This document shows positions 1-55,123 of a DNA stretch of 64,000 bases, one piece after another; the first letter of the stretch is position 1, and each line of letters begins with the position of its first letter. The translations under genes and the position numbers were made by a program. The DNA lies in contig CAYLPP010000008.1 of NCBI GenBank assembly GCA_964385615.1, forward strand, positions 31,150 to 95,149, in the 5' to 3' direction. Source of the stretch: an uncultured bacterium. Lineage in GTDB: Bacteria > Omnitrophota > Omnitrophia > Omnitrophales > Aquincolibacteriaceae. The notes below the pieces were generated by a model, which was given only the letters and a program-made list of their open reading frames with translations, was not told the DNA's origin and did no database searches.

Positions 1-204
1 GAAGAAGTGATGGAAAAAATTCAGGGCATCCGCCTGGTCGGAATTTCATGGGGGGATGAACCGCTGGCTATGGTTGAGGATTCTTCCACTGGACGGACTT
101 ATTTTTTGAAGAAGAATCAGGAATTTCACGGCGTGAAGGTCCAGGAAATCCAGAAACAGAAAATTATCGTGACTTATGAAGGCCAGGAGGCCGAGCTGAT
201 CTGA
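1..204 (+). CDS. C-terminal fragment of a PilP/GspC-like secretin-interacting protein (5' end outside the window)
   Basis: The reading frame is open from nt 1. The C-terminal ~65 aa (IQGIRLVGIS...YFLKKNQEFHGVKVQEI...) matches the small beta-domain of PilP/GspC homology regions. Its stop overlaps the secretin start (ATGA). Confidence 0.5.
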   Translation, partial: EEVMEKIQGIRLVGISWGDEPLAMVEDSSTGRTYFLKKNQEFHGVKVQEIQKQKIIVTYEGQEAELI

Positions 205-1769: not shown

Positions 1770-1789
1770 ATTTTCAGGAGTCCGGCCTC

Positions 1790-8800: not shown

Positions 8801-11800
8801 AATTGATAAATTGGCTCCGAATACGGGTCTTTATGAATGGACGGTGCCCGACCAGGTTTCCGAAAATGTCCGCCTCCGGGTTTCCGACACAAAGGATCCG
8901 GAAGCTTTTGATGTTTCTGACGCGCCTTTCCGCATTCAGGGAATTTTCCACCTGACCAGCCCCAACGGAGGAGAAGTTTGGAAGACGGGGGAACAGCGCG
9001 CTATTACCTGGCAAACGACCGGTCAAATCGAAGGTGTCCGTCTGGAATATTCCAGAGACGGATTCAGTTCGGAGTCCCGTGTCATTGTCGAATCCACGCC
9101 GAATACCGGGCATTTTAATTGGACGGTGCCGGATGATGTCAGCGCTCAGGTTAAAGTGAAGGTGATGGATGTCAAAAACCTGGAAGTTCAGGACGCTTCC
9201 GATCAGAATTTTGAGATCGTGGGTTCTTTTGTGGTGCTCGCGCCCAACGGCGGTGAGAGTTGGCATGCTACGGAGAAGCGGGAAATTACCTGGATGACTG
9301 TCGGAACCGTGAAAGATATCTCCATCGATTACTCCGGAGATGATTTCAAGACTTACGAAACCATTGAACACGGGCTGATGAATACCGGCCGTTACACCTG
9401 GGATGTTCCCGACCGGCTGGGAGAAAATTTCAAGGTCAGGATTTGCGACACGGATAATCCTCATGGCTGCGATTTCTCTGACAATGTTTTCGCGGTTCGT
9501 TCACCGCTTGAAATCACGGCGCCTCGAGGCGGGGAAGAATGGCTGGTCGGAAGCAATCAGGAAATCCGCTGGAATACCTACGGGAGTGTCCGGCGTGTGG
9601 CGGTTTCGTACGCTTCCAAACCTGGAAACTGGATCAAGCTGATTGATGAATTGCCGAATGAAGGTCACTTCCTTTTTAGAGTGCCCGACGATATTTCCCG
9701 GGAAGTTTTATTCAAGGTCACGGATTATGACAACGAAGTTTTAAGCAGTGTCAGCCGGGGCCCTCTCGCGATCCTGGGTTCTTTTGACCTGATCACGCCG
9801 GACGGCGGGCAAAAGTGGGCCGCCGGAACGACTCAGAAAATTTCGTGGGATACGCTTGGAGCCGTTTCCAACGCCCGCCTTGAATATTCTTTTGATGATT
9901 TCAAAAATGATATCAACTTGATTGAATCCTCCATTCCCAATACCGGTTCGTATGAATGGAAGGTTCCGGCCAAAACAGGTCTGACCGCGAAAGTCCGGAT
10001 TGCCGACGCAAATCATACCGAAGCTTTTGACACCTCCAAGGAGGTCTTTAAAATTATGCCGGGCATGACCGTGATCAGCCCGAACGGCGGGGAACAGTGG
10101 ACGGCCGGGCATAAGGAAAAAATCACCTGGAAGACCGAAGGTAAGTCGGATTGGGTTCGGATCGAATACAGCACGGGATCTAAGCCCGCGGTTGTTCCTG
10201 AAGGCCTGATCGGCCCTCTGCCCGCGCCGGTTTCCGAATGGAAGGTTATCACTGACCGCGCGCCGAACGGCGGTTACTATGAATGGGAAGTTCCGACGCA
10301 AAACGGAACGGAATATAAAATTCGAGTCGTCGATGCGCTGGATTCTGACGCCGTGGATGAATCCGACAATTTCTTTGAAGTTAAGCCTGAGATTCTGCTC
10401 AATCATCCCGTCGGAAAAGAAAATTTCAGGGTGGGTGAGCAGGCCGAAATTCTCTGGGATACCGTCGGTACCATTCCTTTCGTGAAAGTGGAATATTCCC
10501 TGGACGGTTTCAATAAGGATATCCGCCCGATTGCCGACAAGCTTGCGAATGAGGGCAAACTCCTCTGGACGGTTCCGGATACCATCACGGATAACGCTAA
10601 AATTCGCGTTTCAAGCAGTGACGACGCGTTGGTGCGCGCCGTTTCGCCCGCGCCATTCAAGATTCTGCCTCCTTTTGAAATTTTGGTTCCCACTGGAATT
10701 GAAAAGTGGACGGTCGGCACGGAGCAGACCCTCAAGTGGGATTGGCGTGGAACGGTGGAAACGGTCAAGCTGGAATATTCGGTGAATGATTTTTCGTCTT
10801 CAACGGTTCTGATTCCTGCGGCTCCCAATAAAGGTTTCTTTGTTTGGACGGTCCCGGATTTGGCTCACGCCCAGGTCAGTCTGAAGGTTTCTGACCCCCG
10901 TTATCCGGAAGCTTCCGCGGTCTCCAAGCCGTTTAAAATTATTCCCGGATTTAAAATGACCGCGCCGGCCGGCGGTGAAAAATTTGATACCGGAAGCCGT
11001 CAGAATATCGAATGGCAGACGGCCGGGCTGAGCACCAAGGTCAAGCTGGAGTATGGAGTCGTCAGGGACGGTGTTACCGTTTGGAAAACGATTGAGAATG
11101 TCATCCGTAATTCAGGCCGTTACGAATGGAAAGTTCCGGATGATCTTTCCAGCCAGGTTAAAGTCCGGGTTTCCGACGTTCTTGATTCAGCGGCTTTTGC
11201 TGAAAACGAAGGAACTTTCAAAATTCTGGGTGTTTTTAAATTGCTGTCTCCCCGGGCGGATGAATTGCTTCGTATCAATGACCGTTTTCAGATCCGTTGG
11301 GAAACGCAGGGGAAGGTGCCCAGCGTTAAAATTGAATACACCGACGCGCCTGAAAGGGCGGACGCGTACAAGCCGGTTGAAAATCTCTGGCAGAATAACG
11401 GAAATTATTTCTGGACGGTGCCGGACACGGCTTCTGAAAAAGTCTGGCTCAAAATCTCCGACGCGGCTGAGCCCGATGCTTTTCGTCTTTCCGAAGCTCC
11501 ATTTAAGATTCGCGGTTCTCTGGCTTGGGATATGCCCGTGGAAGCCGGCGGTTTGAATTGGCCTGTCGGCAGTCAGCAAACTTTGAAATGGGTAACTGTC
11601 GGCACGCTTCCTCGCGTTAATCTGGAATACACGACGGATCAGAAAACCTGGAAAACGATTGCTTCCGGTGTTTCCAATGCCGGCAGTTTTGGCTGGACGG
11701 TTCCTGATGATACTTCCCGGAATGTTCTTCTTCGGATTTCCGACCCTGATCTCCCGGTCATTTCAGATGTGACGGAGCGCCCGCTTACGATTTCGGCGGA

Positions 11801-14800
11801 ATTCAAAATGCTTTCTCCTTCGGCAGGGGATGTGTGGACCGTTGGGAGTTCGAGAAAAATCGAATGGAAAACTACCGGGCATGTGCAGAAAATCTGGCTC
11901 CAGTTTATGGCGGATGGAAAAAAATGGCAGCAGCTGGCCGGACCGCTTCCGGACGGCGGTTTCTATGAATGGACGGTTCCCGATCATATTTCCTCTGAAG
12001 TCAAAATCCGGATTCTGGACGGTGACAATGACAAGGCGTTTGCCGAATCCTCTCCGTTTAAAATTACAGGAACGCTGACGCTTCAGACGCCTGCCGGCGG
12101 AGAAGTCTGGGAAACAGCTTCGCGTCACGAAATCCGCTGGGCGGCTTCAGGGTCTATTTCTAAAGTCCGGCTGGAAGCCGTGGAAGAACCGCTTAATGCC
12201 GGTGACGCGGTTCAGCCCGCGGTGATTATCGCGGAGTCCGTGAACAATAAAGGTTCTTTTGAGTGGGCGGTTCCCGACCGTATTTCAGACCGTTTGAAAG
12301 TCCGGGTAACGGATGCCTCCGATGCTTCCGTGTCGTCGCAGTCCGCGAATCCTTTCTCGATTATCGCGCACCTTGAAGTTAAGAATCCCAAACGGGGCGA
12401 TATTTGGACTGTGGGTTCGGATCACGAGATTGTCTGGACGGTTTCCGGTACGGTGCCCACGGTCCGGCTGGAATATTCGCGCGACGATTTTTACCGTGAA
12501 ACGAATCTGATTGCTTCTGACGCGCCGAACACAGGGGCCGCGATGTGGACTGTTCCCGATGCGATTTACGACGCGTTGAAAGTCCGTGTTTCAGATTCCC
12601 GTGATATCCGCGCTTTTGGGCTTTCCGAACCTTTTAAAGTCCGCGGGGAATTTGCTTTCGTGAAGCCGGAGCCGGGGCAGGTCTGGCGTGTGGGATCTCT
12701 CCAGTCCGTGGAGTGGCAGACGAAAGGAACGATTCCATCCGTGCGCATGGAATTTTCGCGTGATGATTTTCAAAGAGACATCCAGGTTATTTCCAATGTT
12801 CATGAAAACACGGGCCGGTTTGAATGGGCGGTGCCGGATGTCATTTCTAGAACGCTTAAGCTCCGGATCCTTGACGAAAAAGACGCGTCGGTTTTAGCGG
12901 TTTCCAATCCGCTCAAGGTGGAGGGCGGACTCGCGCTTAAGTCGCCGATGGGCGGAGAAAAATTTCAGGTCCTTTCCACACAGAAAATTGCCTGGGATAC
13001 GACGGGGAGCATTTCGAAAGTCCGCGCCGAATATTCCAAGGATGATTTCAATAATGACGTGCATCTGATAGCGTCAGACCTCAAGAATGAAGGTTCTTTT
13101 GATTGGCTGGTACCGGATGACGTGGCCGATACGCTCAAGGTCCGGGTTATGGACGCGGGAGATTTTTCAGTGAATTCAATCAGCCCCGCGTCTTTCGCGG
13201 TTCGCGGGTCTCTTCTGATGACGACGGCGTCTGCCGGTCAGCGTTGGGCGGTGGGTTCTGAGCGCGAAATCAGCTGGGAAACAGTCGGCACGATTCCTTT
13301 TGTTACGGTTCAGTATTCCAAAGATGACTTTCAAAAAGATATTCGCCTCATTGCTGAAAACGCCGTGAACCGCGGAAAAATAAACTGGACGGTTTCGGAT
13401 GATATCTCCACGACCGTGCGCCTTCGGATTTTTGACGCGGCTCATGGCGAAATTTCCGCGACGGCGGCGGATCCTCTTTCTATTGTCGGAGCGCTGAACT
13501 GGACTTCCGTCACACCAGGTACTTCCGGTGTGGTTGGGGAACCTCTTCTCTTGAAATGGAATTCTCAGGGAACGATTCCTGTCGTCCGGCTGGAATATGG
13601 CCAGCAAACCGGTTCCGGGGCTGAGGATTGGAAGCTGGTAACAGGCTCTCTTGAAAATAAGGGCGAGTTTTCCTGGGTTGTTCCTGATTTTATTACCGAC
13701 CGGGCGGTGTTGAAAATTTCTGATGCCCGTGACGCCGGAACTTCCGCCGTTTCCCCGGCCTTTAAAATCAGCGGAAAACTGACGATGGGTCTTCCTTCCG
13801 GCGGGGAACGGTGGATTGTGGGAACTTCGCATGATCTGGTCTGGAACACTTCAGGGTCCGTGCGCAGTGTCGCCCTGGAGTATTCTTCCGATGGATTTAG
13901 AAAAGATATTCAGCAGGTGACTTCCGCGCCGATTACAAACACCGGACGGTATCTTTGGACGGTTCCGGACCGGATATCCGATAAAGTGCAGATTCGAGTT
14001 AAAGATGCCGGTTCCCAGGCTTTGGAAAGCGTCTCCGGCGTTTTTTCAATTGCCGGCGATCTGGCTTTTCTGAATCCTTCGGGCACGGTTTCCTGGCAGC
14101 TTGAAGTTCCTCAGACGATTGAATGGCAAACGGTCGGATCGATTCCTTTTGTGCGTCTCGAAGCGATCTCCGCGGACGGCGGTGAGGGCGGGGAAAGCGG
14201 TTCGGTTTTGGCTGCCCGTATTGAAAACACCGGAAAATTTACCTGGAATATTCCCGACCACGCGCCTGCCCGCGTGAAATTGCGCGTTGTGAATGCCGAT
14301 GACAGCGCTGTTTTTGCCGAAACTCCCGAACCTGTTCAGATTTTTGGGGTGCTTAATTTTACGGCTCCGGCTGAGAAACAGGTGTGGACGGTTGGAAGCA
14401 CCCAGGATATTGCCTGGACGACCCGGGGATTTGCGCCGAATGTGAAGCTGGAATTTTCACGGGATGGTTTCAGGAAAGATATTCAAATAATTTACCCGCT
14501 GATTCCCAACAACGGTTCTGTTCAATGGCAGGTTCCGGATGTCATTACTCCGGAATTATGGCTTCGCGTTTCTGACGCCGATCATCCCCGTGTTTCGGCG
14601 GTGACTTCCCAGCCTGTTGCCGTGAAGGGCGCGTTGGAAATTACGGCGCCCGTTGACAGCGCTCCCGCGGAAGTTGGCGAGAAGCAGGAGATTGTCTGGA
14701 AGACCATCGGCTCCATTCCGTTTGTGCGGGTGGAATATTCCGCGGATGGTTTTACGGCGACTCAACAGGTCATCGCTGAAAAAGTTCCCAATACCGGGCG

Positions 14801-17800
14801 TTTTACCTGGGATATTCCCGCGGCCGCGCGCCAAAAACTTTCCGTGCGGGTTTCTGATGATGCCGATCCCGGCGTCTTTTCAGTTTCACGGCCGTTTGGG
14901 GTGCACGGCAAACTCGAGCTTCTTTCACCCCGGGGCGGTGAAATCTGGAAGGTTGACGAGACCGCGGTTATTCAATGGAATACGCTGGGCAATGTTGAGT
15001 TTGTCAAAATCGAATATTCTTCCGATGAATTTATAACGTCTGATCTGATTACTGCCCGGGCGGAAAATAAGGGTAGTTTCGCTTGGCGGGTTCCGACGTC
15101 AGCGAATCAGCCGGTCAAAATCCGTGTTTCTGACGCGGATGATCCGGCGGTTTCCGCTGTGACCGCGACTCCGCTTAAGGTTCAGGGTGTGTTTGAGTTT
15201 CTGGCTCCGCAAGGCGGGGAGTTCTGGATTTCCGGCACGGAACAGCCCGTCATCTGGCAGACCCGGGGCAGTATTCCGTATGCTTCCCTTGAATATTCCA
15301 CGGACAATTTCAATACGGCGATTCCGGTGATGCTGGGATTCGTGAATGAAGGGCGCGTCAAGTGGACAGTGCCCGATACCGCTTCCGACACCCTGAAATT
15401 CAGAGTTACGGACGCGCGTGATCAATCCGTTTTCGCCGTTTCCGCTCCGGTTCGTGTCGGTGGGCGTCTCCAGCTTCTGTCTCCTTCAGGAGAGCTTCTT
15501 CGGGTGGGACAGGAAACCTCCATTAGGTGGAAGACGACCGGTGTGATTCCGAAAGTGCGTCTGGAATATTCCGGAGACGCTTTCAAACAGGATGTCCAGG
15601 TGCTCCAGGATTCCGTGGACAATCTTTCAGAGCAGGGGGAATTCACCTGGAAAGTTCCGGATATGATCTCGAAAGATTTGCAGGTGCGTGTTTCCGATAT
15701 TCAACACTCTGATATTTATGATGTTTCCGCCGTTCCGTTTAAAATTGCCGGAACGCTCCGCATGACGGCCCCTCGTGCAGGGGAGACTTGGCCTGTCGCG
15801 GGACGCCGGACTTTGGAGTGGGAAACTTCCGGAACGATTCCCTTTGTGCGGCTTGAATACTCTGCCAATAATTTCGTGACCGCGGTGCCGATGGATTTGC
15901 GTTTGGTGAACACCGGAAGATTTGATTGGACGGTTCCTGATCTTTCAGGGCAGGAGATTCAGTTTAGAATTTCCGACGCGGACGATTCCGCGGTTTCGGA
16001 TATGACGCCGTTCCGCGTGGCGGTGCGGGGAATTCTTACTTTGACGTCTCCGCTGGGTGATGAAGTCTGGCAGGCCCGCAGTGAACATCCCGTTACCTGG
16101 ACGACTACCGGAACTGTGCCGAACGTGAGTCTCGAATATGTTTCAGGGCTGTCGCCGGTTCCCGTTAAAATAGCCGAAGCGATTGCCAACACCGGCAGTT
16201 ATGTCTGGAAAGTTCCGGATCAGACACTTCGTTCTGTTAAAGTCAGAGTTTCTGACAGCCGGAATCCCATGATTTACAGTGAGTCTCCGGTTTTTGAAAC
16301 GCGCGGCAGTCTGAGTCTGAACGCTCCTCAGGGGGGCGAAATCTGGATTGCGGGGACCGAACATCCGGTTTTGTGGACATCCACTGGAAGCATTGAAAAA
16401 GTCCGGTTGGAATATTCCATTGATCAATTCAATACGGTAACGCCTGTTTCTCTATCGCTTCCAAACGAAGGCCGTTACCAGTGGCGCGTTCCGGACGCGA
16501 TTTCCCGGAATGCTCAAATCCGCGTGAGCGACGCCGCTCAGCCGGAAGTGCGCGCTGAAAGCCGGACCTTTGAAATTCGCGGGGCTTTGACGCTGATTAA
16601 TCCTATCGGCGGGGAAGACTGGGCTGTGGGAAGCCGGCATCCGGTTTCCTGGGAAACGACTGGAACGATTCCGCAGGTTAAAGTCGAATACTCTTCGGAT
16701 GATTTTAGAAATGACATTCAGCTGGTGACGCCCGCGACGGCGAACAAAGGCGTTTATTATTGGGATATCCCCTCGCTTCAGGCAACCCAGATTAAAGTCC
16801 GTGTGGTGGATACGGCTAATCCCGATGTTTTTGATATTTCCCGCAACCCGGTCCGGATCGCGGGTGACCTTGAATTGATCACGCCTTCGAACGGAGAAAC
16901 TTACCGTGTGGGTGAAAAGATTCAGGTGCGCTGGCGGGCGACTCCGAATATTGCCAACGTTAAACTGGAATATTCCGCGGATGATTTTAAGACGGCTGTT
17001 CTGATCAGTAATTATGTTCCTAATACCGGAACTTTTGACTGGAATATTCCGGACCGGCTTTCAGAGAATCTGCGTGTTCGTATTTCTGACGCGGCCAATG
17101 CCATTGTTTCGGACACGTCAAAAATTCCTTTCCGGATTCAGGGAGCGTTCAAACTGACATCTCCCCTGGGAGATCAGGTCTGGACGGTCGGAAGCCGTCA
17201 GAAAATCAGCTGGAACACTTTAGGAAGTGTCGCCAAGGTCCGTCTTGAGTATTCTTCGGATAATTTCAAGACGGCTATCCCTATTGCAGCGGGGCTTGAT
17301 AACCAGGGTTCGTTTGACTGGAGTGTTCCCGAGTTGGGCCAGGACATTCAAATCAAAGTTTCCGATGCGTCGGTTTCAGCGGTTCAGGCAGTTACGGACG
17401 GAAAAATTCATGTGGTGGGCCGTTTGGAACTGATCACTCCCGCGGCGGGTGAACGCTGGATTGTGGGTGAAGAACGTGTTATCCGTTGGAGAGTTTTAGG
17501 CCTCATGCCCAAAGTGGATCTCGAATATTCCAAAGACGGATTCAGCCGGGATATTCATTTGATTGCCGAAAATGTTCCGAATTTCGGAAGTTACGCTTGG
17601 AAAATTCCCAATGATCCGGCAGATAAAGTGACGGTGAGAATCCGGAGTGCGGGAGATCATAAGGTTTTTGATGTTTCTGAGGCGCCTTTCCGGATTGATT
17701 ACAATCATGTCAGCTGGACGGTCCGCGATCTGCGCACGGGTGAGCATCTGGTCGGTTTGACTTTGACGGACAGCACCGGCAAAACCCGTTCTGGTTTGAG

Positions 17801-19130
17801 TTCTCCGCTGAGCCTGGATTATCCGTATGGAATTTATACGACGGTCTGGTCAAAGCCTGGCTATGGAGAATTTCAGAGTACCTGGCTGGCGGATAAGGAC
17901 ATGGGCTTCATGGTTTCGCTTAATCCTGAAGAAAAAACGCCTGAGACGGTGCGATTTGATTTCCGTTATGACGCTGACCGCGACTTGATGAGTATCCGAA
18001 GCTGGTATGAGCTGGACGGCGCGGCTGTTTCCTCCGTGGTAAAGTCCGAAGTTAAAATTTATCAGGGCACGGAAATGATCAAAACGCTGATTTCGACCAC
18101 GCCTGACACGAATGGAATTTTTTCTATGGTTTGGGATACCCGTCAAGTTGCCGGAAATACCCGCTACGTGGCTTCGGCCTCCATTACAACGGCGGATGGG
18201 AGAACGCTTGCGAGCCCGGTTTCCTATCAGCTGGATATTCCGGTCAAGGAGTTCAAAGAACCCGCGCCTCGTCAGAGCGTCGCTTCGGTTTATTTGAAGC
18301 CGTTGGCTCTTCCGGCTTCAGGTCCCGCGAAACCGCCTGTTGCCGCGCCGGTTTCCGTGAAGCCTCAGGTTCAGAGTGTTTCGAAACCTGCTATTTCTGA
18401 AAAACAAGAAACTTCGGCTCCGATATCCGCTGAACCGCTTTCAGTATTACAGCGTGCCTCAGAATTTAAACTGTCCGCTCCGTCAGAAGCCGTGATTAAC
18501 GAAACGGTTTCGATTGCTTTTACGGGGGATCGGGGTGCCCGCCCCGTTCTGGATATTTATGACGCGAACCGGCGCTTGATTTTACGCGCGCAGCCGATGA
18601 CGATGCAGCCGGACGGCCAGTTTGTTTATCTTCTGCCGGTTAAAGGGTACTCGTTTATTCCGGGTAAATCCGTTACGGTAACCGCGGTGGATCTGACTTC
18701 GCAGCAATTTAAGTCGGTTTCTATTATGATCAAGTCGGCCGCTTCAGCCCTCGGCCTTGACCGGCAAGCCGGAATGATTTCGGCTCAGGAACTTGTTTCC
18801 AGACTGGATGATATTATTCGTGACATTCAAGTGTTTCAGAAAAGTAGAACTGAATGGGAGAAGATGCTTCCGCGCATTGAAAACGGCATTTCCAATTTAG
18901 CCGGTTCCCTGACCCGTCCGGATCTTCCTGACGCAGTGATTTCAAAAGTCAATGATCTGAGCCAGGCTTTGGCCGGGCTCTTGGAAAGCAGGGGGTACAG
19001 CTCCTCTTTCCTTGCGGATTCTCATGTGGCAGAGGGGGCTCCCGCCCGCGAGATGGAAAGCCAGTTACGGCTGTTCCAGGATGCCATTCAGATGCTCCGC
19101 CGCCTTTACGACAGCACTGTTTCCAATTAA
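2862..19130 (+). CDS. Giant secreted multi-domain protein (5,422 aa): signal peptide, 4x LamG_3 lectin-like domains, 40 tandem ~90-aa beta-sandwich repeats, conserved C-terminal module
   Basis: A single uninterrupted ORF with a GTG start. The signal peptide is RGGKKTGVFLQAGFLSLFFLFFLATSSFA|E. Four domains carry the LamG_3 signature (ALWHLDE..G....DS.G...; VWQHVTAVY..DLRIYVNG; VWQHVAVTW; RWHHLALTADGRNLFLYIDG; KWNHVAAVFDRKEVRLYING). From aa ~1187 there are 40 repeats with the consensus xPNGGExWxxGxxxxIxWxTxGxIxxVxLEYSxDxFxxDxxxIAxxxxNxGxYxWxVPDxxSxxVKVRVSDxxDPxxxDxSDxxFxIxG. Confidence 0.9.
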   Translation: MIKPAQRGGKKTGVFLQAGFLSLFFLFFLATSSFAEIRQWDFDNPEDYQFDQNQIKIKDGKASLIPVAPYRDAGAQSFQRGQFDLNTTVDRGTLELSLRGPQETAGPELPSPVGNREPGLAALWHLDEPNGTNLLDSVGRTVAKASDAEVVSGQTGFGYARLFDGEKSFVFIPHYETLSLRGPFSIETWIRPLAVKSSKPQTIVSRWQTVGAQRGFALQINTEGKLDFLVSADGATVTHQLGNTVLSDGVWQHVTAVYTGSDLRIYVNGILDSAPLAFSGPVYFADNPVYLGALVDNRVDQFYQGVIDEVAIYQRPLTETETLTHFGNIQGLAGLWHLNERGGVLADASGYGQNGNVSGDVRYETEGRMGTGLGFSGHNAYAQIAGSSRLAPQGQITLEAWIKPEVFPGLGRRASVLSIYEEPAPGGAPGGGEISLSVLGPDGRIAAYASKLQPAEVRGRISLTPGVWQHVAVTWSEGRVQIYNNGIRDTSSAYTGSLDFVSKAAMRLGTDASGTSAFQGSIDEVAVYRRARTGSEIAASAGLFAPSGIFTSEVKDAGGVSPWKTVEWKLPLDYGLANNGQEAGLLHLFHLDDREGSGITNSKGEIQASPIGTYPVPGIFGQARWFAGKGYDKILSQKDFPALSTFSISCWFEFASGQAGLSDRIFSIGDGNPTVFRAGDGRMHVQMQGAREIIGDRILGDSRWHHLALTADGRNLFLYIDGLLDGVSPFMTASAQSPLVLGNLKSTDTFQGAIDEFLFYNYPLDRDTVLQQFLRGQMDAKMLVRSSDSKDFSSAAWRGPQGVKLEEEPAMFTSALWHFDEKVFRGQPGEIQDAGHFANHGTVFGKISSFSDSISGSAVRFNGSTDFIRVTDTDSLHPDKFTISAWVRPDEMAEGQVTLIDKQFKAGAPVFSSFALDLIAGNRLALRLGRPGGYRQIETGRDGEVAAGKWNHVAAVFDRKEVRLYINGKKVKTADFREPVPYDDGPLYFGRYASSEARYFRGALDEVHLMNTPATDAEIESRFAQADPGNFFRPSVETPAGVSPARYFQYRVFLSTRQPFASPAVSEVNLRGSSFPAGRPAVSPRSGISYAEISSFTDKKGAGNAGHVTYQISPDGSNWFFHNGRRWVVAAGSNESNTSDQIQTQVNSFAKEVGMGSFYFRAFLQSPTGMEPAEIEDVEVEYLPNKVTVTSPNGGEALLTGTSQVIRWNTAGEMKKVSIEYSKDGFHNDFHEIAKGIDNTGSFEWKVPDDLSTSVKVRVMDSLDPRIYDMSDISFRVTGKFELITPNSEERWMAGSPQKIVWRTQGKIPEVKLDYSTDGFEKTVFPIVDSVKNEGSFEWKVPDHLSKFVKVRVSDVRDPEVFDKSNDSFSITGGLGILSPQLGTRWITGSQQEIRWQSVGTIPLVNIEYFTSGRGDWVRIAENFESRGSFMWQVPDDIDGQVQIRVIDASDLRVSAESEPFAIVGGLRLLNPKGGEQWTAGTRRKIAWETIGSIPAVNLEYKSGADTAWQTIEKNTANTGSYVWEVPASLNGALTVRVVDARDPFTEAVHASASSVIPGFHLQAPNGGEEWKIGTEQQIIWETTGESSQVRLEYSKDGFKSDIHEIIAAASNLGSFTWTVPDDASQNVWIRVSDSNNSTAQSSSNASFRIYGGFEIQIPKGGEKFEVGSQATFVWDTLGTLPNVRLEYSHDDFAKDSRLIEASAPNEGRYTWTVPDDIGDGYRLRISDTRDPKTEAYSKEPFAVMGNFHLIYPVGGEDLIAGTVARIAWRGAGSVPVVRIDYSEDDFQKSFNTITDKAPNNGAYDWTVPNLIGRQFKIRVWDPSQPDSVDVMKQSARIVGGFRLMEPNGGEVLYVGDRSMIKWETSGTLPRVKLELSTDNFTRDISVIADSYPNNGQYDWLVPDAPSGRYKVRVSDPRDVTAFDISNADFLIRSRFTLQSPNGGEGWAVGEKKDIRWQTSAAVSQVRLDFTTNDFQSVSVIDKLAPNTGLYEWTVPDQVSENVRLRVSDTKDPEAFDVSDAPFRIQGIFHLTSPNGGEVWKTGEQRAITWQTTGQIEGVRLEYSRDGFSSESRVIVESTPNTGHFNWTVPDDVSAQVKVKVMDVKNLEVQDASDQNFEIVGSFVVLAPNGGESWHATEKREITWMTVGTVKDISIDYSGDDFKTYETIEHGLMNTGRYTWDVPDRLGENFKVRICDTDNPHGCDFSDNVFAVRSPLEITAPRGGEEWLVGSNQEIRWNTYGSVRRVAVSYASKPGNWIKLIDELPNEGHFLFRVPDDISREVLFKVTDYDNEVLSSVSRGPLAILGSFDLITPDGGQKWAAGTTQKISWDTLGAVSNARLEYSFDDFKNDINLIESSIPNTGSYEWKVPAKTGLTAKVRIADANHTEAFDTSKEVFKIMPGMTVISPNGGEQWTAGHKEKITWKTEGKSDWVRIEYSTGSKPAVVPEGLIGPLPAPVSEWKVITDRAPNGGYYEWEVPTQNGTEYKIRVVDALDSDAVDESDNFFEVKPEILLNHPVGKENFRVGEQAEILWDTVGTIPFVKVEYSLDGFNKDIRPIADKLANEGKLLWTVPDTITDNAKIRVSSSDDALVRAVSPAPFKILPPFEILVPTGIEKWTVGTEQTLKWDWRGTVETVKLEYSVNDFSSSTVLIPAAPNKGFFVWTVPDLAHAQVSLKVSDPRYPEASAVSKPFKIIPGFKMTAPAGGEKFDTGSRQNIEWQTAGLSTKVKLEYGVVRDGVTVWKTIENVIRNSGRYEWKVPDDLSSQVKVRVSDVLDSAAFAENEGTFKILGVFKLLSPRADELLRINDRFQIRWETQGKVPSVKIEYTDAPERADAYKPVENLWQNNGNYFWTVPDTASEKVWLKISDAAEPDAFRLSEAPFKIRGSLAWDMPVEAGGLNWPVGSQQTLKWVTVGTLPRVNLEYTTDQKTWKTIASGVSNAGSFGWTVPDDTSRNVLLRISDPDLPVISDVTERPLTISAEFKMLSPSAGDVWTVGSSRKIEWKTTGHVQKIWLQFMADGKKWQQLAGPLPDGGFYEWTVPDHISSEVKIRILDGDNDKAFAESSPFKITGTLTLQTPAGGEVWETASRHEIRWAASGSISKVRLEAVEEPLNAGDAVQPAVIIAESVNNKGSFEWAVPDRISDRLKVRVTDASDASVSSQSANPFSIIAHLEVKNPKRGDIWTVGSDHEIVWTVSGTVPTVRLEYSRDDFYRETNLIASDAPNTGAAMWTVPDAIYDALKVRVSDSRDIRAFGLSEPFKVRGEFAFVKPEPGQVWRVGSLQSVEWQTKGTIPSVRMEFSRDDFQRDIQVISNVHENTGRFEWAVPDVISRTLKLRILDEKDASVLAVSNPLKVEGGLALKSPMGGEKFQVLSTQKIAWDTTGSISKVRAEYSKDDFNNDVHLIASDLKNEGSFDWLVPDDVADTLKVRVMDAGDFSVNSISPASFAVRGSLLMTTASAGQRWAVGSEREISWETVGTIPFVTVQYSKDDFQKDIRLIAENAVNRGKINWTVSDDISTTVRLRIFDAAHGEISATAADPLSIVGALNWTSVTPGTSGVVGEPLLLKWNSQGTIPVVRLEYGQQTGSGAEDWKLVTGSLENKGEFSWVVPDFITDRAVLKISDARDAGTSAVSPAFKISGKLTMGLPSGGERWIVGTSHDLVWNTSGSVRSVALEYSSDGFRKDIQQVTSAPITNTGRYLWTVPDRISDKVQIRVKDAGSQALESVSGVFSIAGDLAFLNPSGTVSWQLEVPQTIEWQTVGSIPFVRLEAISADGGEGGESGSVLAARIENTGKFTWNIPDHAPARVKLRVVNADDSAVFAETPEPVQIFGVLNFTAPAEKQVWTVGSTQDIAWTTRGFAPNVKLEFSRDGFRKDIQIIYPLIPNNGSVQWQVPDVITPELWLRVSDADHPRVSAVTSQPVAVKGALEITAPVDSAPAEVGEKQEIVWKTIGSIPFVRVEYSADGFTATQQVIAEKVPNTGRFTWDIPAAARQKLSVRVSDDADPGVFSVSRPFGVHGKLELLSPRGGEIWKVDETAVIQWNTLGNVEFVKIEYSSDEFITSDLITARAENKGSFAWRVPTSANQPVKIRVSDADDPAVSAVTATPLKVQGVFEFLAPQGGEFWISGTEQPVIWQTRGSIPYASLEYSTDNFNTAIPVMLGFVNEGRVKWTVPDTASDTLKFRVTDARDQSVFAVSAPVRVGGRLQLLSPSGELLRVGQETSIRWKTTGVIPKVRLEYSGDAFKQDVQVLQDSVDNLSEQGEFTWKVPDMISKDLQVRVSDIQHSDIYDVSAVPFKIAGTLRMTAPRAGETWPVAGRRTLEWETSGTIPFVRLEYSANNFVTAVPMDLRLVNTGRFDWTVPDLSGQEIQFRISDADDSAVSDMTPFRVAVRGILTLTSPLGDEVWQARSEHPVTWTTTGTVPNVSLEYVSGLSPVPVKIAEAIANTGSYVWKVPDQTLRSVKVRVSDSRNPMIYSESPVFETRGSLSLNAPQGGEIWIAGTEHPVLWTSTGSIEKVRLEYSIDQFNTVTPVSLSLPNEGRYQWRVPDAISRNAQIRVSDAAQPEVRAESRTFEIRGALTLINPIGGEDWAVGSRHPVSWETTGTIPQVKVEYSSDDFRNDIQLVTPATANKGVYYWDIPSLQATQIKVRVVDTANPDVFDISRNPVRIAGDLELITPSNGETYRVGEKIQVRWRATPNIANVKLEYSADDFKTAVLISNYVPNTGTFDWNIPDRLSENLRVRISDAANAIVSDTSKIPFRIQGAFKLTSPLGDQVWTVGSRQKISWNTLGSVAKVRLEYSSDNFKTAIPIAAGLDNQGSFDWSVPELGQDIQIKVSDASVSAVQAVTDGKIHVVGRLELITPAAGERWIVGEERVIRWRVLGLMPKVDLEYSKDGFSRDIHLIAENVPNFGSYAWKIPNDPADKVTVRIRSAGDHKVFDVSEAPFRIDYNHVSWTVRDLRTGEHLVGLTLTDSTGKTRSGLSSPLSLDYPYGIYTTVWSKPGYGEFQSTWLADKDMGFMVSLNPEEKTPETVRFDFRYDADRDLMSIRSWYELDGAAVSSVVKSEVKIYQGTEMIKTLISTTPDTNGIFSMVWDTRQVAGNTRYVASASITTADGRTLASPVSYQLDIPVKEFKEPAPRQSVASVYLKPLALPASGPAKPPVAAPVSVKPQVQSVSKPAISEKQETSAPISAEPLSVLQRASEFKLSAPSEAVINETVSIAFTGDRGARPVLDIYDANRRLILRAQPMTMQPDGQFVYLLPVKGYSFIPGKSVTVTAVDLTSQQFKSVSIMIKSAASALGLDRQAGMISAQELVSRLDDIIRDIQVFQKSRTEWEKMLPRIENGISNLAGSLTRPDLPDAVISKVNDLSQALAGLLESRGYSSSFLADSHVAEGAPAREMESQLRLFQDAIQMLRRLYDSTVSN
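3170..5900 (+). other. Four tandem LamG/concanavalin-A-like (Laminin_G_3-type) domains within giant protein 1
   Basis: The LamG_3 motif set recurs four times: LWHLDExxG...DSxG...GxxxxGxxGxAxxFDG...(W)xHVAxxxDxxxxxLYxNG...DEVxIY. Confidence 0.7.
6421..17696 (+). repeat. In-frame tandem array of 40 copies of a ~88-92-aa (264-276 nt) beta-sandwich repeat
   Basis: I counted 40 consecutive units ending in the W-x-VPD ... KVRV(S)D ... F-x-I-x-G motif (for example FEWKVPDDLSTSVKVRV, FEWKVPDHLSKFVKVRV). The units are divergent at nucleotide level and conserved at key hydrophobic, W and G positions. Confidence 0.85.
17697..19130 (+). other. Unique C-terminal module of giant protein 1, paralogous to the C-terminus of giant protein 2
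   Basis: It begins DYNHVSWTVRDLRTGEHL...PYGIYTTVWSKPGYGEF. Giant protein 2 has the matching DYYYITWDIRDLRTNAPL...PYGIWGTTFSKTQYGDL, and the two share an identical 15-mer ccgcgatctgcgcac. The tail is predicted helical/coiled. Confidence 0.7.
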
Positions 19131-19340
19131 TTTCTCAATACAAAGCCTAAAATAGAGCTAAAATTAATGGTATCATTAGTCGATATTACTAATCGGCTTA
19201 CCTATTTGCAATAAATAGTTATAAATTGCTAGTTAATGCAACTTGAATCTTAGCCGGAATAAGGCTATCCTTAGGAAAAGTTAGGTTTGATAACTTTAAA
19301 AATTAACCGCATAAACCTTAATAACCATCGTCCAATAGGC
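19131..19340. promoter_or_regulatory. AT-rich intergenic region, candidate promoter for the downstream PQQ-propeller gene
   Basis: Around 210 nt are markedly more AT-rich than the flanking coding sequence (aaattaatggtatcattagtcgatattactaat...ataaatagttataaattgc). Several TATAAT-like hexamers are present. Confidence 0.3.
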
Positions 19341-20552
19341 ATGAACTTGAAAATCAAAAATCTTCGAAATACGGCTTTGATCCTCTGCGGTCTTCTCATG
19401 ACGTCAGGAACTTCGGCTGTCTGGGCGAAGAAGGAAATGCCTGAAGGCTGGTTCGGTTATAAGAATAGCCAGAATCGCGGGGGGGTCTTTGAAAAAGAAT
19501 CCATAGGCCTTCCTTTTAAAATTGTCTGGAGTTATAAGATTGAAGATAAGTCCAACGGCTTTGTGGATTACGGCCCCGTCGCCGCGAACGGAAAAATTTA
19601 TACCCCCGACGGTCTCAATAATGTCATGGCTTTGAATGCTTCCGACGGCACCCTGATCTGGAAAAAACAAGTGATCTCCAACGTTTTTACGGTTTCGCTT
19701 TCAGAGGATGGAAAAATTCTTTTCGTCACGACAGCGATTACCACGAAGCCCACTCCGACTCTTTTCGCGATTGACGCTGAGACGGGGGATGATCTCTGGG
19801 ATAATTTGGCGTTTAATCAGCCCGCGGTCGGCGGTATGGAAGGCGCTCCTGTTATTCAAGACGGTAAAATTTATGCAGGCTACCTTCAGTATGAAGGTAA
19901 GGGCGGTGTCGCGGCTTACGATGTTCGTGACGGTAAAATGGTCTGGCAGTGGGAAGTTCCCCGGGTCTCGCCGTATAGCCCGCTTTCTTACGCAAAAGGC
20001 CGGCTTTACGTCGGTTTTGAAAATAAATCTATTTACTGTCTGAGCGCTTCAGACGGAAAAATCGTTTGGAATTCTGCTCCTCTTCCCGACATTATTTTTA
20101 TGGCTCCTCTTGTGATGAATGACCGGGTGTACTTCGGGGCAGGTACGGCCGCTTACTCCTTCGATGCTTCACGGGGAAGTTTGATTTGGAAAAAAGAACT
20201 CGATGGCGAACTTGGGCACGGTTCCTTTTCGTATTTTGAAGATACTCTTTACGCGGTTACCCGGGATTCCAGCGTGATTGCTATGCAGGCCGCGACCGGA
20301 TCTATTTTGTGGCGTCAAAATCTCGGGATGGGGCCGATTGAATCTTCTCCTTTAATTGACGCGGATAAACGGATGCTTTACATCGCGACGCAGGAAAATA
20401 AATTGGCCGCGCTGGAATTGTCCGGCGGGAAGATTGCGGGGGAAATGCGGTTTTCTGAAGATCCCAGAGGGGTCTGGAAAAGCACGCCGGCTCTTTACAA
20501 CGGGAAACTGTACGTCGGTTCCCTGGATAGAACTTTTTACGCGGTAGAATAG
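19341..20552 (+). CDS. Secreted PQQ-like beta-propeller repeat protein (BamB/PQQ enzyme repeat family)
   Basis: It has a signal peptide (MNLKIKNLRNTALILCGLLMTSGTSAVWA). Motifs of the form G-K/R-I/L-Y-x-G...DG-x-L/I-x-A-L/M-x-A-x-x-G-x-x-L/I-W recur at least 6 times. An alternative TTG start lies at 19287. Confidence 0.75.
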   Translation: MNLKIKNLRNTALILCGLLMTSGTSAVWAKKEMPEGWFGYKNSQNRGGVFEKESIGLPFKIVWSYKIEDKSNGFVDYGPVAANGKIYTPDGLNNVMALNASDGTLIWKKQVISNVFTVSLSEDGKILFVTTAITTKPTPTLFAIDAETGDDLWDNLAFNQPAVGGMEGAPVIQDGKIYAGYLQYEGKGGVAAYDVRDGKMVWQWEVPRVSPYSPLSYAKGRLYVGFENKSIYCLSASDGKIVWNSAPLPDIIFMAPLVMNDRVYFGAGTAAYSFDASRGSLIWKKELDGELGHGSFSYFEDTLYAVTRDSSVIAMQAATGSILWRQNLGMGPIESSPLIDADKRMLYIATQENKLAALELSGGKIAGEMRFSEDPRGVWKSTPALYNGKLYVGSLDRTFYAVE

Positions 20553-20586: not shown

Positions 20587-21207
20587 ATGAACTTAAAAAA
20601 ACAATTCGTTCTCATGACAGCTGTGGTTTTCGGGCTCGCGCTGGTACCGGGGCATTTGTACGCCGTGGATACAGCTGAAATGCTGGCTCAGAAAAAAGCG
20701 GAACTTAACGGCCATGAATGGCAGGTTAAGGTTGTCCCGGCTTCCGACCCTAAAAGCGGAGGTTCGGAGGATACCCTGATTTTTAAGGACATGAAGTTTG
20801 AGTCTATGAAAATGACGGGAGGCGGTTTTCCTTCAACGAACTACACGATTTCCCTTCAGGAGGGCGGACCTTCGGTTTTTGAAACGATGCAGTCCGACGG
20901 CAAGGGAACCGTCGTGTTTTGGCGCGGTGAGTGGGAAGGTGATTCCATGAAAGGCGTTATGAGCAAGCAATCTGAAGGGAAGAACAGCGATTATTACTTC
21001 AGCAGCTTGAGCAAGCAGACGATTGTGGAAGCGCCCAAGGTTGAAGTTCCGGAACCGGTGACCGAAGCGGCTGCGGATACTGCCGAAGCTGTTGAAAACG
21101 CGGAGAGCGCGGCTCAGAACATGGAAGCCGCGGTGCCGCCGGCGGTTCCTGAAACAGTGCCTGCGCAGGAAGAAGAAAAGCCCAAGAAAAAGAAGGGCTG
21201 GTTTTAA
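20587..21207 (+). CDS. Hypothetical secreted protein with acidic A/E/P-rich tail and C-terminal KPKKKKGWF
   Basis: A GGAGGA RBS lies 7 nt upstream. The signal peptide is FVLMTAVVFGLALVPGHLYA. I recognised no family. Confidence 0.6.
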   Translation: MNLKKQFVLMTAVVFGLALVPGHLYAVDTAEMLAQKKAELNGHEWQVKVVPASDPKSGGSEDTLIFKDMKFESMKMTGGGFPSTNYTISLQEGGPSVFETMQSDGKGTVVFWRGEWEGDSMKGVMSKQSEGKNSDYYFSSLSKQTIVEAPKVEVPEPVTEAAADTAEAVENAESAAQNMEAAVPPAVPETVPAQEEEKPKKKKGWF

Positions 21208-48591: not shown

Positions 48592-48601
48592 GAGGAAATC
48601 T

Positions 48602-49351: not shown

Positions 49352-49366
49352 TAACCGGGAGAAGGT

Positions 49367-51696: not shown

Positions 51697-51718
51697 CCCT
51701 TTTTTTACCCCTCCGCCC

Positions 51719-51747
51719 TTGTGAAGTCTATGGGCATATGCTATATT
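51719..51747 (+). promoter_or_regulatory. Candidate sigma70-type promoter for the histidine kinase + atpD transcription unit
   Basis: TTGTGA (51719-51724), a 17-nt spacer, then TATATT (51742-51747), in the 146-nt gap after atpG. An AGAGGAA RBS lies 8 nt before the ATG at 51843. Confidence 0.4.

Positions 51748-51842: not shown

Positions 51843-55123
<3,281 letters not shown>

What the first reader, a model, noticed from the sequence alone, without database searches (positions are those of the whole stretch)
17697..19130. Both giants end in a paralogous non-repetitive C-terminal module (DY..(I/V)(S/T)W.(V/I)RDLRT ... PYGI(Y/W).T..SK..YG)
After the last repeat, protein 1 (17697-19130) and protein 2 (45382-47073) switch to a shared, non-repetitive domain followed by a predicted helical/coiled tail. 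The first ~100 aa align clearly and include an identical 15-mer ccgcgatctgcgcac. This says the two genes are paralogues that share terminal modules, not merely repeat-sharing genes. The conserved module is a good candidate for the cell-proximal anchor or an assembly/secretion determinant. No LPXTG, PEP-CTERM, T9SS-CTD or autotransporter barrel is evident.
Basis: seen in the sequence. Interest (0 to 1): 0.65.

Follow-up and report, generated by a model that had tools for sequence, protein, structure and literature searches.

The report
Shared membrane-anchoring tail of two giants
The two giant surface proteins in this window end in the same ~480-570-residue tail, found so far mainly in giant proteins of Omnitrophota bacteria, and gene fusions in relatives show that this tail is joined to a small membrane-anchor protein encoded right after the second giant, so it is most likely the cell-proximal base of a long adhesive fibre.

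Summary
The two tails align by BLASTP (32% identity over 139 aa, E 3e-9), and the 15-mer occurs exactly twice. Profile comparison shows homology along the whole tail, not only the first ~100 aa. The tail consists of a two-beta-sandwich module, a variable linker, an Ig-like domain and a ~130-aa helical domain. None of these matches Pfam, NCBIfam or PDB sequences.

An exhaustive HMMER search finds the module in 249 protein clusters. It is usually present as a single copy 300-600 aa from the C-terminus, often in proteins of 2,000-6,900 aa. The members that carry a taxon name are Candidatus Omnitrophota.

In 37 of the 150 best hits the tail continues into a ~250-aa extension ending in a transmembrane helix. 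That extension is homologous (37-48% identity) to the separate gene just downstream of giant 2 (47098..48066). In 8 of 8 unfused loci of that lineage, this anchor gene directly follows the giant, and in fused loci it is absent as a separate gene. All 10 of these loci are followed by an F-type ATPase operon; type IV pilus/T2SS genes follow wherever the held DNA extends that far.

Best reading: the tail is the cell-proximal base that tethers the fibre to the cytoplasmic membrane. The anchoring mechanism itself is inferred, not shown.

The parts
2862..19130 (+). Giant 1 (5422 aa). It has an N-terminal signal peptide, Laminin_G_3 lectin-like domains, many Kre9_KNH-type Ig-like repeats, and then the tail.
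   Evidence: ORF; N-terminus; Pfam Laminin_G_3 at 6e-57 and Kre9_KNH at up to 5e-51; collinear orthologues P0006, P0011 and P0012.
17688..18254 (+). Tail 1, conserved module. It consists of two beta-sandwich domains: A at about 17703-17921 (carrying the motifs W.VRDLRT and PYGIY..WSK.GYG) and B at about 17943-18236.
   Evidence: HMM envelope; AlphaFold2 on a 31-sequence alignment with pLDDT 92.5; no Pfam or PDB sequence match.
18255..18428 (+). Tail 1 linker. It is Pro/Ala/Val/Lys-rich and predicted to be disordered.
   Evidence: pLDDT below 50 for tail residues 185-258; not alignable with the giant 2 linker.
18429..18749 (+). Tail 1 Ig-like domain ('ETVSIAFTG...PVLDIYD...PGKSVTVTA').
   Evidence: HMM envelope; AF2 strands at residues 261-349; found in 81 of the 150 relatives.
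18750..19127 (+). Tail 1 C-terminal helical domain (~126 aa, 'GY..SFL' motif). It ends the protein.
   Evidence: HMM envelope; AF2 helices at residues 363-479; hhalign against the giant 2 lineage gives E 3.5e-11.
24436..47073 (+). Giant 2 (7545 aa). It has a signal peptide, a ~560-aa unannotated head, about 75 Kre9_KNH-type Ig-like repeats, and then the tail.
   Evidence: ORF and translation; Pfam Kre9_KNH.
45373..46053 (+). Tail 2, conserved module (227 aa). It is the same two beta-sandwich domains as in tail 1, with insertions.
   Evidence: HMM envelope with i-E 4.5e-108; BLASTP against tail 1 gives E 3e-9.
46054..46350 (+). Tail 2 linker. It is made of amphipathic helical repeats, in place of the Pro-rich linker of tail 1.
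   Evidence: Weak Apolipoprotein-like Pfam match at tail residues 231-312, E 4.8e-6, below the curated cutoff; alignment.
46351..46659 (+). Tail 2 Ig-like domain.
   Evidence: HMM envelopes 46351-46434 and 46426-46659.
46660..47064 (+). Tail 2 C-terminal helical domain. It ends in the motif EQKLGGSDAPVV, which is the point where fused relatives continue into the anchor domain.
   Evidence: HMM envelope; junction comparison.
47098..48066 (+). Anchor partner gene (the likely start is the ATG at 47104). Its parts are a signal peptide, an Ala/Pro-rich linker, a ~85-aa beta domain, a ~100-aa helical domain, one transmembrane helix (WKLILSIIGFLALLGVGFYVRWFLL) and a basic cytoplasmic tail.
   Evidence: Translation; BLASTP at 37-45% identity and E 1e-37 to 1e-65 against the C-terminal extensions of 26 relatives; Kyte-Doolittle 19-residue maximum of 2.16; no Pfam, NCBIfam or PDB hit.
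48137..55123 (+). F-type ATPase operon that follows the anchor gene in every related locus examined. Gene order is epsilon, c, b/delta, alpha, gamma, (histidine kinase insert at 51837..53711), beta.
   Evidence: Pfam; NCBIfam; synteny.
204..2836 (+). Secretin (204..1769) and a TPR/coiled-coil protein (1790..2836), directly upstream of giant 1. The same pair precedes the giant 1 orthologues.
   Evidence: Pfam Secretin 3e-48 and TPR; NCBIfam PilQ/GspD-like; synteny in L004 and L015.
55622..62764 (+). Type IV pilus / type II secretion-like genes. They include the E ATPase, the F platform protein, J- and K-like pseudopilins, PilM/N-like and PilO/M-like genes.
   Evidence: Pfam; E and F follow the ATPase operon in L003, L005, L011 and L012, and an E gene in L013.

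Best explanation
The shared C-terminal region is a conserved 'basal cassette' of a family of Sec-exported giant fibre proteins. Members that carry a taxon name are Omnitrophota.

The cassette has four parts in a fixed order:
- a module of two beta-sandwich domains;
- a variable spacer;
- one to three Ig-like domains;
- a ~130-aa helical domain.

The cassette is the end of the fibre that is held at the cell. Its helical domain is joined to a small anchor unit made of a beta domain, a helical domain, one transmembrane helix and a short basic cytoplasmic tail. The join is covalent in about half of the relatives. In this window it is presumably non-covalent.

Here the anchor unit is the separate, signal-peptide-bearing gene 47098..48066, right after giant 2. 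The long Ig-repeat body, and in giant 1 the N-terminal LamG lectin-like domains, would then project away from the cell as an adhesive fibre.

What is shown:
- homology of the two tails along their whole length;
- the family and its fixed architecture;
- the fusion/split relationship, which falls at an exact domain boundary;
- the conserved gene order.

What is inferred:
- that the split proteins bind each other;
- that the membrane is the cytoplasmic membrane, with N-out/C-in topology, based on the N-terminal signal peptide and the positive-inside rule;
- that giant 1, which has no partner gene of its own, uses the same anchor in trans;
- how the fibre passes the outer membrane. The secretin encoded at the head of the locus is the obvious candidate.
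For: Tail homology. BLASTP gives E 3e-9. hhalign over the whole tail gives E 1.5e-19. The helical domain alone gives E 3.5e-11.

The family. 249 representative clusters reach E<=1e-3 and 164 reach E<=1e-10 among 1.84 billion representatives. The module is usually a single copy, followed by Ig-like domains (81 of 150 hits) and by the helical domain (69 of 150 hits).

Fusion evidence. 37 of 150 hits carry a C-terminal extension homologous to window ORF 47098..48066 and to the gene following P0002. Identity is 37-48% and E-values run from 1e-37 to 1e-80.

Exact junction. Fused forms read '...KFGG.D.P.VS|TSL.PGSV.FRI..NPS'. Split giants stop 3-8 residues after the same 'KLGG.DAPVV' motif. Split partners each have their own signal peptide.

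Fusions are widespread. They occur in all three sequence clusters of the module, including the giant 1-like cluster.

Synteny.
- In 8 of 8 unfused loci (window, L001, L003, L005, L010, L013, L014, L016) the partner gene is immediately downstream of the giant.
- In 2 of 2 fused loci (L011, L012) that slot is empty, and the ATPase epsilon gene follows the giant directly.
- Sources.

Portability. The same tail plus partner is attached to a different body, RCC1 repeats, in L016. The cassette therefore behaves as a portable base.

Topology. Neither giant has a membrane segment after its signal peptide, whereas the partner has a strong one followed by a basic stretch.
Against: No physical interaction, localisation or topology has been measured.

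Giant 1 and its orthologues have no partner gene nearby. They also lack the terminal 'KLGG.DAPVV' junction motif. The anchor link for giant 1 is therefore indirect.

Among orthologues the tail is not better conserved than the repeat body. For giant 1 the module is 52-54% identical against 39-55% for the body, and the helical domain is only 22-34% identical. Conservation level alone does not mark the tail as special.

If the organism is diderm, as the secretin and BamB-like genes suggest, a fibre anchored in the inner membrane must cross the outer membrane, and no precedent was tested here.

47 of the 150 hits showed no helical-domain match. The profile used was built from only four sequences, so it is unclear whether those tails differ or the profile is simply too weak.
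Confidence: 0.7

Rival explanations
1. The tail is a secretion or assembly determinant. On this view it is recognised by the type IV pilus / type II secretion-like machinery encoded in the same locus. The giants would be exported through the secretin and then released or re-attached, and the downstream single-pass protein would act as a dedicated chaperone or export adaptor, not a permanent anchor.
For: Both giants lie between the secretin+TPR genes and the E/F/pseudopilin genes of one locus. That arrangement recurs in relatives. Published work reports giant Omnitrophota genes next to T2SS-like loci (bioRxiv 10.1101/2023.11.21.568195; bioRxiv 10.64898/2026.06.07.730766). The giants themselves carry Sec signal peptides and no membrane segment.
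Against: In about half of the relatives with complete tails, the tail is covalently continuous with a transmembrane helix and a cytoplasmic tail. That is hard to reconcile with release of the protein. T2SS substrates have no known linear C-terminal signal domain (established knowledge, not tested here).
Confidence: 0.15
2. The shared tail has no special role. On this view it is simply a set of additional structural beta-sandwich and helical spacer domains, inherited from the common ancestor of the two genes.
For: Foldseek finds only generic tandem beta-sandwich matches with TM-score <=0.43. The tail is not more conserved than the body among orthologues.
Against: The order, copy number and C-terminal position of the cassette are fixed across 249 clusters, while the bodies differ in repeat number and even in repeat type (Kre9_KNH, LamG, RCC1). 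The cassette is repeatedly fused to, or adjacent to, the anchor unit.
Confidence: 0.08
3. The tail plus anchor couples the fibre mechanically to the adjacent non-canonical F-type ATPase. The giants would then be motor-driven 'legs' or tethers, functionally comparable to the Mycoplasma mobile gliding machinery.
For: The anchor, whether a separate gene or fused, is directly followed by the ATPase epsilon gene in 10 of 10 loci examined. No a-subunit gene was seen in the operon. Epsilon is truncated to 81 aa and gamma is highly divergent. Seymour et al. [quoted passage not shown]
Against: Gene adjacency is the only link. The window's alpha and beta subunits pass the canonical atpA and atpD cut-offs and fail the MMOB1660/MMOB1670 gliding-ATPase models. 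The cytoplasmic tail of the anchor is short and, in this window, lacks the 'AFPE' motif of relatives.
Confidence: 0.07

Closest known systems
Giant proteins of Omnitrophota next to T2SS/T4P-like loci (West-Roberts et al. [quoted passage not shown] 2023, PMC10066038)
   Same: The named relatives belong to the same phylum. The genomic setting is the same: secretin, E and F genes, pilins and an F-type ATPase nearby. In both cases very long, repeat-rich, exported proteins are proposed to act in adhesion.
   Different: Those studies treat proteins of >=10,000 aa or ORFs >20 kb. They describe many transmembrane helices, SecA-like domains, dockerins or enzyme arrays. The proteins here are 5,400-7,500 aa, have no membrane segment, and are built of Kre9_KNH-type Ig repeats. 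The shared tail cassette, the anchor partner and their fusion/split relationship are not mentioned in the passages searched.
Gram-positive LPXTG (sortase-anchored) surface proteins
   Same: Both have an N-terminal signal peptide, a long repeat stalk, and (in fused relatives) a C-terminal hydrophobic helix followed by a basic tail. In both the C-terminal end is cell-proximal.
   Different: There is no LPXTG motif. The helix is preceded by a conserved ~190-aa two-domain unit and can be a separate polypeptide with its own signal peptide. No sortase is present in the locus.
SlaA/SlaB two-component S-layer of Sulfolobales (PDB 8qox)
   Same: In both, a large outer protein is held by a separate, smaller membrane protein made of beta-sandwich domains, a helical stalk and a C-terminal transmembrane helix. 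SlaB is the second-best Foldseek hit for the module (E 6.9e-7).
   Different: The fold match is generic (TM-score 0.34, rmsd 9.7 A) and involves the giant's own module, not the anchor protein. There is no sequence similarity. SlaA/SlaB is an archaeal lattice and not a bacterial fibre.
Giant RTX adhesins of Gram-negative bacteria (LapA, MpIBP, SiiE, FrhA)
   Same: Both are thousands of residues of tandem Ig-like domains that form a long surface fibre, with ligand-binding domains at the distal end.
   Different: The polarity and export route are opposite. RTX adhesins leave through a type I system by means of a C-terminal signal and are retained by an N-terminal plug. The giants here have N-terminal Sec signal peptides, no RTX repeats detected in the tails or in the scanned body segments, and a C-terminal retention cassette.
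Mycoplasma mobile gliding machinery (Gli349/Gli521 giant surface proteins plus an F1-like ATPase)
   Same: Both combine giant membrane-tethered surface proteins with an unusual F-type ATPase. This resemblance is recalled from established literature and echoes the proposal in PMC10066038.
   Different: The window's alpha and beta subunits do not reach the NCBIfam cut-offs for the MMOB1660/1670 families but do reach those for canonical atpA/atpD. Similarity to the Gli proteins was not tested. The organism appears to be diderm.

Membership tests
Tail-cassette family of Omnitrophota giant proteins (uncatalogued; defined here by profiles A4/A5) | Two-beta-sandwich module with the motifs F.IDYY.I.W...D..T and PYG.W...W.K.GY, near the C-terminus (usually a single copy) | tested here: met
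   Both giants score 277 and 347 bits against the profile, once each. 249 clusters were found in the exhaustive search.
Tail-cassette family of Omnitrophota giant proteins (uncatalogued; defined here by profiles A4/A5) | Module followed by Ig-like domain(s) and a ~130-aa helical domain | tested here: met
   HMM envelopes were found in both giants. The same domains occur in 81 and 69 of the 150 relatives respectively.
Tail-cassette family of Omnitrophota giant proteins (uncatalogued; defined here by profiles A4/A5) | Anchor unit (beta domain + helical domain + transmembrane helix) fused to the tail or encoded immediately downstream | tested here: met
   Met for giant 2, through ORF 47098..48066. 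Not met for giant 1: there is only one partner homologue in the window, and none lies next to the giant 1 orthologues.
Kre9_KNH Ig-like repeat (Pfam PF10342) | Match to the Pfam model above the gathering score | tested here: not met
   The tails have no Pfam hit. The repeat bodies of both giants do match, with whole-segment scores of 70-172 bits against a cutoff of 24.6.
LPXTG sortase substrates | C-terminal LPXTG motif followed by a hydrophobic helix and a basic tail | tested here: not met
   Only loose internal matches (LPASG, LPASA) were found, far from the C-terminus. Neither tail has a hydrophobic segment.
PEP-CTERM / exosortase substrates | PEP motif + transmembrane helix + basic tail at the C-terminus | tested here: not met
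   There is no PEP motif and no transmembrane helix in either tail, and no NCBIfam hit.
T9SS C-terminal sorting domain (Por_Secre_tail) | Match to the CTD models at the extreme C-terminus | tested here: not met
   Neither tail has a Pfam or NCBIfam hit. One of the 31 module sequences matched at E 0.089 only. The C-terminus is helical.
Autotransporter / type V secretion | C-terminal beta-barrel translocator | tested here: not met
   No Pfam hit was found. AlphaFold2 predicts helices, not a barrel, for the last ~120 residues.
CarboxypepD_reg / transthyretin-like beta-sandwich (PF13620) | Sequence match to the Pfam model; transthyretin-like fold | tested here: inconclusive
Mycoplasma gliding-type F1-like ATPase (NCBIfam NF045863, NF045858), for the adjacent operon | Alpha and beta subunits reach the family cut-offs | tested here: not met
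   Alpha scores 384 bits against a cutoff of 600, and beta 425 against 850. Both pass the canonical cut-offs: atpA 530.8 against 484, and atpD 573.4 against 463.

The most novel reading that the evidence does not exclude
The tail cassette and its single-pass anchor form the transmembrane link of a previously unrecognised machine. In it, interchangeable giant fibres (Ig-repeat, LamG or RCC1 bodies) are tethered in the cytoplasmic membrane next to, and mechanically or energetically coupled to, a non-canonical F-type ATPase. That ATPase has no a-subunit gene in the operon, a truncated epsilon and a divergent gamma. The fibres would be threaded outward through the locus-encoded secretin. This would be a diderm counterpart of the Mycoplasma mobile 'leg plus F1-like motor' system, used by Omnitrophota to hold on to or move over host cells.
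Probability: 0.08. Interest if true: 0.9.

Novelty: new variant of a known kind. Interest (0 to 1): 0.62.

Why it matters
Giant proteins of Omnitrophota are widely reported, but they are largely unannotated and nobody knows how they are held on the cell.

This analysis contributes four things:
- It defines a recurrent, uncatalogued C-terminal cassette with 249 sequence clusters and no Pfam, NCBIfam or PDB match.
- It identifies the likely membrane anchor through a clean fusion/split relationship.
- It shows that the cassette sits at a fixed position in the 'F-type ATPase / type IV pilus' locus, which has been proposed to underlie host attachment in this phylum.
- It shows that the same base carries different fibre bodies.

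Together these give concrete targets for testing how these fibres are mounted: the helical domain, the anchor ectodomain, the short cytoplasmic tail and the secretin. They also provide profiles that could be used to annotate this class of protein in metagenomes.

Tried and rejected
- **Word-index homologue searches.** Searching with either tail, and with the 31-sequence profile, returned one hit each. Only the exhaustive HMMER search revealed the family.
- **Family and PDB sequence searches.** Pfam, NCBIfam and PDB sequence searches of the tails, the module alignment and the anchor alignment gave nothing significant. The only recurring weak Pfam match was FlgD_ig, in 5 of 31 module sequences.
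- **Foldseek against the PDB.** Both models gave only generic beta-sandwich strings: teneurin, SlaB, complement MG domains and cytokine receptors, with TM-score <=0.43. I did not build on these.
- **Genome-collection scan.** With the 4-sequence alignment it returned only 5 loci.
- **Source of the window.** An exact look-up of the window's ATPase alpha subunit found no record, so the source genome is not in that collection.
- **Rejected: the module is a degenerate body repeat.** No match to it was found elsewhere in either giant.
- **Rejected: the 15-mer signals recent gene conversion.** Overall nucleotide identity of the modules is only 38%.
- **Rejected: the tail is under stronger constraint than the body.** Orthologue identities do not show this.
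- **Rejected: the adjacent ATPase is a member of the Mycoplasma gliding ATPase families.** Its subunits fail those cut-offs.
Full report
**1. The observation**

The window holds two complete giant ORFs on the + strand: 2862..19130 (5422 aa) and 24436..47073 (7545 aa). Both begin with Sec-type signal peptides. Both consist mostly of ~90-aa Ig-like repeats that match Pfam Kre9_KNH. Giant 1 also has N-terminal Laminin_G_3 lectin-like domains.

The finding's coordinates, 17697 and 45382, are the first residue after the last repeat in each protein.
- BLASTP of the two tails gives 32% identity over 139 columns, E 3e-9.
- The 15-mer CCGCGATCTGCGCAC occurs exactly twice, at 17723 and 45408. No shuffle of the window produced even one match.
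- The 15-mer encodes the conserved peptide RDLRT. The codon-aligned modules are otherwise only 38% identical in DNA and 24% in protein. The paralogy is therefore old and there is no sign of gene conversion.
- The module is not a worn copy of the body repeat. BLASTP and a full-sensitivity HMM scan of all six frames find it once per giant and nowhere else.

**2.

The word-index search returned only one close relative for each tail. P0001 is 42% identical to tail 1 and P0002 is 34% identical to tail 2. Aligning the four tails shows collinearity to the C-terminus. hhalign of the two pairs gives probability 99.2% and E 1.5e-19 over 479 columns. The C-terminal helical domain alone, compared as lineage-specific profiles of 9 and 40 sequences, gives probability 97.2% and E 3.5e-11, with a shared 'GYD..FL' motif.

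The anatomy comes from two AlphaFold2 runs and from HMM envelopes. The whole-tail run had pLDDT 65 with 4 sequences. The module-only run had pLDDT 92.5 with 31 sequences.
- Two beta-sandwich domains: 17688-18254 in giant 1 and 45373-46053 in giant 2.
- A spacer that differs between the two. Tail 1 has a Pro/Ala-rich, disordered spacer. Tail 2 has amphipathic helical repeats.
- An Ig-like domain: 18429-18749 and 46351-46659.
- A ~130-aa helical domain that ends the protein: 18750-19127 and 46660-47064.

**3. A family that no catalogue holds**

Neither the tails nor the module alignment match anything significant in Pfam, NCBIfam or PDB sequences. Foldseek against the PDB gives only generic tandem beta-sandwich matches with TM-score <=0.43. 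These include teneurin, the SlaB S-layer stalk, complement MG domains and cytokine receptors.

An exhaustive HMMER search with the four-sequence module profile, against 1.84 billion representatives, found 249 clusters at E<=1e-3 and 164 at E<=1e-10. Among the best 150 hits:
- Many are proteins of 2,000-6,900 aa.
- The module is almost always single and lies 300-600 aa from the C-terminus.
- 81 of them also match the Ig-like profile and 69 match the helical-domain profile.

The cluster members that carry a taxon name are Candidatus Omnitrophota. One genome locus is 'Omnitrophica WOR_2 bacterium'. A few weak hits have uninformative names. The window's own source is not in the collection, so assigning it to Omnitrophota is an inference from 50-80% identity and shared gene order.

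**4. The key result: a fusion/split relationship with the next gene**

The helical domain is either at the very C-terminus, as in both window giants, or it is followed by a further ~250 aa. That extension is homologous to the separate ORF immediately downstream of giant 2 (47098..48066) and to the gene downstream of P0002. Identity is 37-48% and E-values run from 1e-37 to 1e-80 for 26 proteins by BLASTP. With a profile, 37 of the 150 hits are fused.

The unit consists of the following parts:
- a ~85-aa beta-rich domain (NPS...VP.K.YLP.EV...YD...YYVY...F.VEV.D.W);
- a ~100-aa helical domain;
- one strongly hydrophobic helix;
- a short basic tail.

In this window the unit has its own signal peptide and an Ala/Pro-rich linker. 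The split partners in four other loci also have their own signal peptides.

The junction is exact. Fused proteins read '...KFGG.D.P.VS | TSL.PGSV.FRI..NPS'. Unfused giants of the giant 2 lineage end a few residues after the same 'KLGG.DAPVV' motif. Fusions occur in all three sequence clusters of the module, including the cluster that contains giant 1. Neither window giant has any membrane segment after its signal peptide. The partner does: its Kyte-Doolittle 19-residue maximum is 2.16, against 1.24 and 1.47 for the giants.

**5. Gene order**

| Locus class | Loci | Arrangement |
|---|---|---|
| Unfused giants of the giant 2-like or third cluster | window, L001, L003, L005, L010, L013, L014, L016 (8 of 8) | Partner gene directly follows the giant, then the ATPase epsilon gene |
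| Fused giants | L011, L012 (2 of 2) | No separate partner gene; epsilon follows the giant directly |

After epsilon come the c, b/delta, alpha, gamma and beta genes. Type IV pilus/T2SS E and F genes then follow. This part of the order is seen wherever the held DNA extends far enough: the window, L003, L005, L011 and L012, plus an E gene at the end of L013. In L016 the giant's body is made of RCC1 repeats instead of Ig repeats, yet it carries the same tail, and its partner is duplicated in tandem.

Giant 1 belongs to a second conserved lineage with full-length collinear orthologues.
- It sits directly after a secretin and a TPR protein in the window, L004 and L015.
- It is followed by a BamB-like protein or an AsmA-like protein, never by a partner homologue.

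[quoted passage not shown] 2023 describe in every class of Omnitrophota (PMC10066038). It also corresponds to the T2SS-like loci reported next to much larger Omnitrophota giants. None of the passages searched in those papers mentions this tail or its partner.

**6. Mechanism**

The best-supported reading is that the shared tail is the cell-proximal base of a long fibre, and that its helical end is attached to the single-pass anchor unit. The attachment is covalent in fused relatives and presumably non-covalent in the window. The N-terminal signal peptide, the lone C-terminal helix and the basic residues after it predict an N-out/C-in topology in the cytoplasmic membrane. The Ig-repeat body, and the LamG head of giant 1, would then point outward.

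What is shown:
- homology of the tails;
- the family and its fixed architecture;
- the fusion/split relationship at a precise boundary;
- the conserved synteny.

What is inferred:
- that the split proteins bind each other;
- the identity of the membrane;
- that giant 1 shares the anchor;
- the route across the outer membrane, for which the secretin is the natural candidate.

Caveats. Giant 1 lacks both a neighbouring partner and the terminal junction motif. The tail is not more conserved than the body among orthologues.

Rival readings are listed separately with their tests. They are a secretion determinant for the T4P/T2SS-like machine, a functionless structural spacer, and a coupling device for the adjacent ATPase.

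**7. Comparison with known systems**

The tail works like the C-terminal anchoring end of Gram-positive wall proteins, or like the SlaA/SlaB two-component arrangement. It is not a member of either family, nor of the LPXTG, PEP-CTERM, T9SS-CTD, autotransporter or RTX/T1SS classes.

The adjacent ATPase has alpha and beta subunits that pass the canonical atpA and atpD cut-offs and fail the Mycoplasma gliding-ATPase models. Its gamma is very divergent, its epsilon is only the 81-aa N-terminal domain, its c subunit matches no NCBIfam model, and no a-subunit gene is visible in the operon here or in the related loci.

**8. Verdict**

I class the finding as a new variant of a known kind, namely a surface fibre with a C-terminal anchoring cassette, built from uncatalogued domains. 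It also has an unusual, testable genomic link to a pilus/ATPase locus. I rate interest at 0.62. The bolder motor-coupling reading is not excluded, but it rests on adjacency only.

Noticed in passing
window 48137-55123: The F-type ATPase operon after the anchor gene is atypical. Epsilon is only 81 aa (N-terminal domain). The c subunit has no NCBIfam match. b and delta are fused. Gamma scores 64.9 bits against a cutoff of 194. No a-subunit gene is present here or in the related loci, although alpha and beta pass the canonical cut-offs.
   Followed up: partly
window 51837-53711: A PAS/HisKA/HATPase_c histidine kinase gene lies between ATPase gamma and beta. None of the related loci examined (L003, L005, L011, L012, L013) has a gene in that position.
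   Followed up: partly
L016 25988-27379: In this relative the anchor partner is duplicated in tandem within one 463-aa protein: two beta+helical units before a single transmembrane helix. The giant it follows has an RCC1-repeat body but the same tail module.
   Followed up: partly
window 24000-47000: GC skew is near zero (-0.02 to +0.05) across giant 2, whereas it is about +0.06 to +0.13 in most of the rest of the window. Giant 2's repeats also show a higher-order periodicity: repeats carrying an inserted 'ADPAP(V/A/T/I)D(N/G)xG' loop recur every few units.
   Followed up: no
window 22275-23750: A 491-aa polytopic membrane protein between the two giants has no Pfam or NCBIfam match. Its function is unknown.
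   Followed up: no
window 23846-24439: A 197-aa ORF with a hydrophobic N-terminal segment overlaps the start of giant 2 by 4 bases (stop at 24439, giant start at 24436), which suggests translational coupling. A 39%-identical homologue lies downstream of the giant 1-type gene in L006.
   Followed up: partly
window 19287-21207: A BamB-like PQQ beta-propeller (19287..20552) and a 206-aa signal-peptide protein (20587..21207) follow giant 1. The BamB-like gene also follows the giant 1 orthologues in L006, L007 and L009; the 206-aa homologue is seen in L006 and L007, and L009 ends too early to tell. The 206-aa homologue also appears next to the secretin/TPR pair in L005, which lacks a giant 1-type gene.
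   Followed up: partly
alignment A6 (anchor partner), cytoplasmic tail: Most fused and split anchors share a short cytoplasmic motif 'AK..AFPE' just after the transmembrane helix. The window's copy lacks it and instead has a longer, different tail.
   Followed up: no
L004 30849-31541 and L015 22801-23523: In two loci the giant 1 orthologue is followed by a ~230-240-aa protein with an AsmA-family match. AsmA-like proteins are linked to outer-membrane lipid transport and biogenesis. No equivalent was recognised in the window.
   Followed up: no
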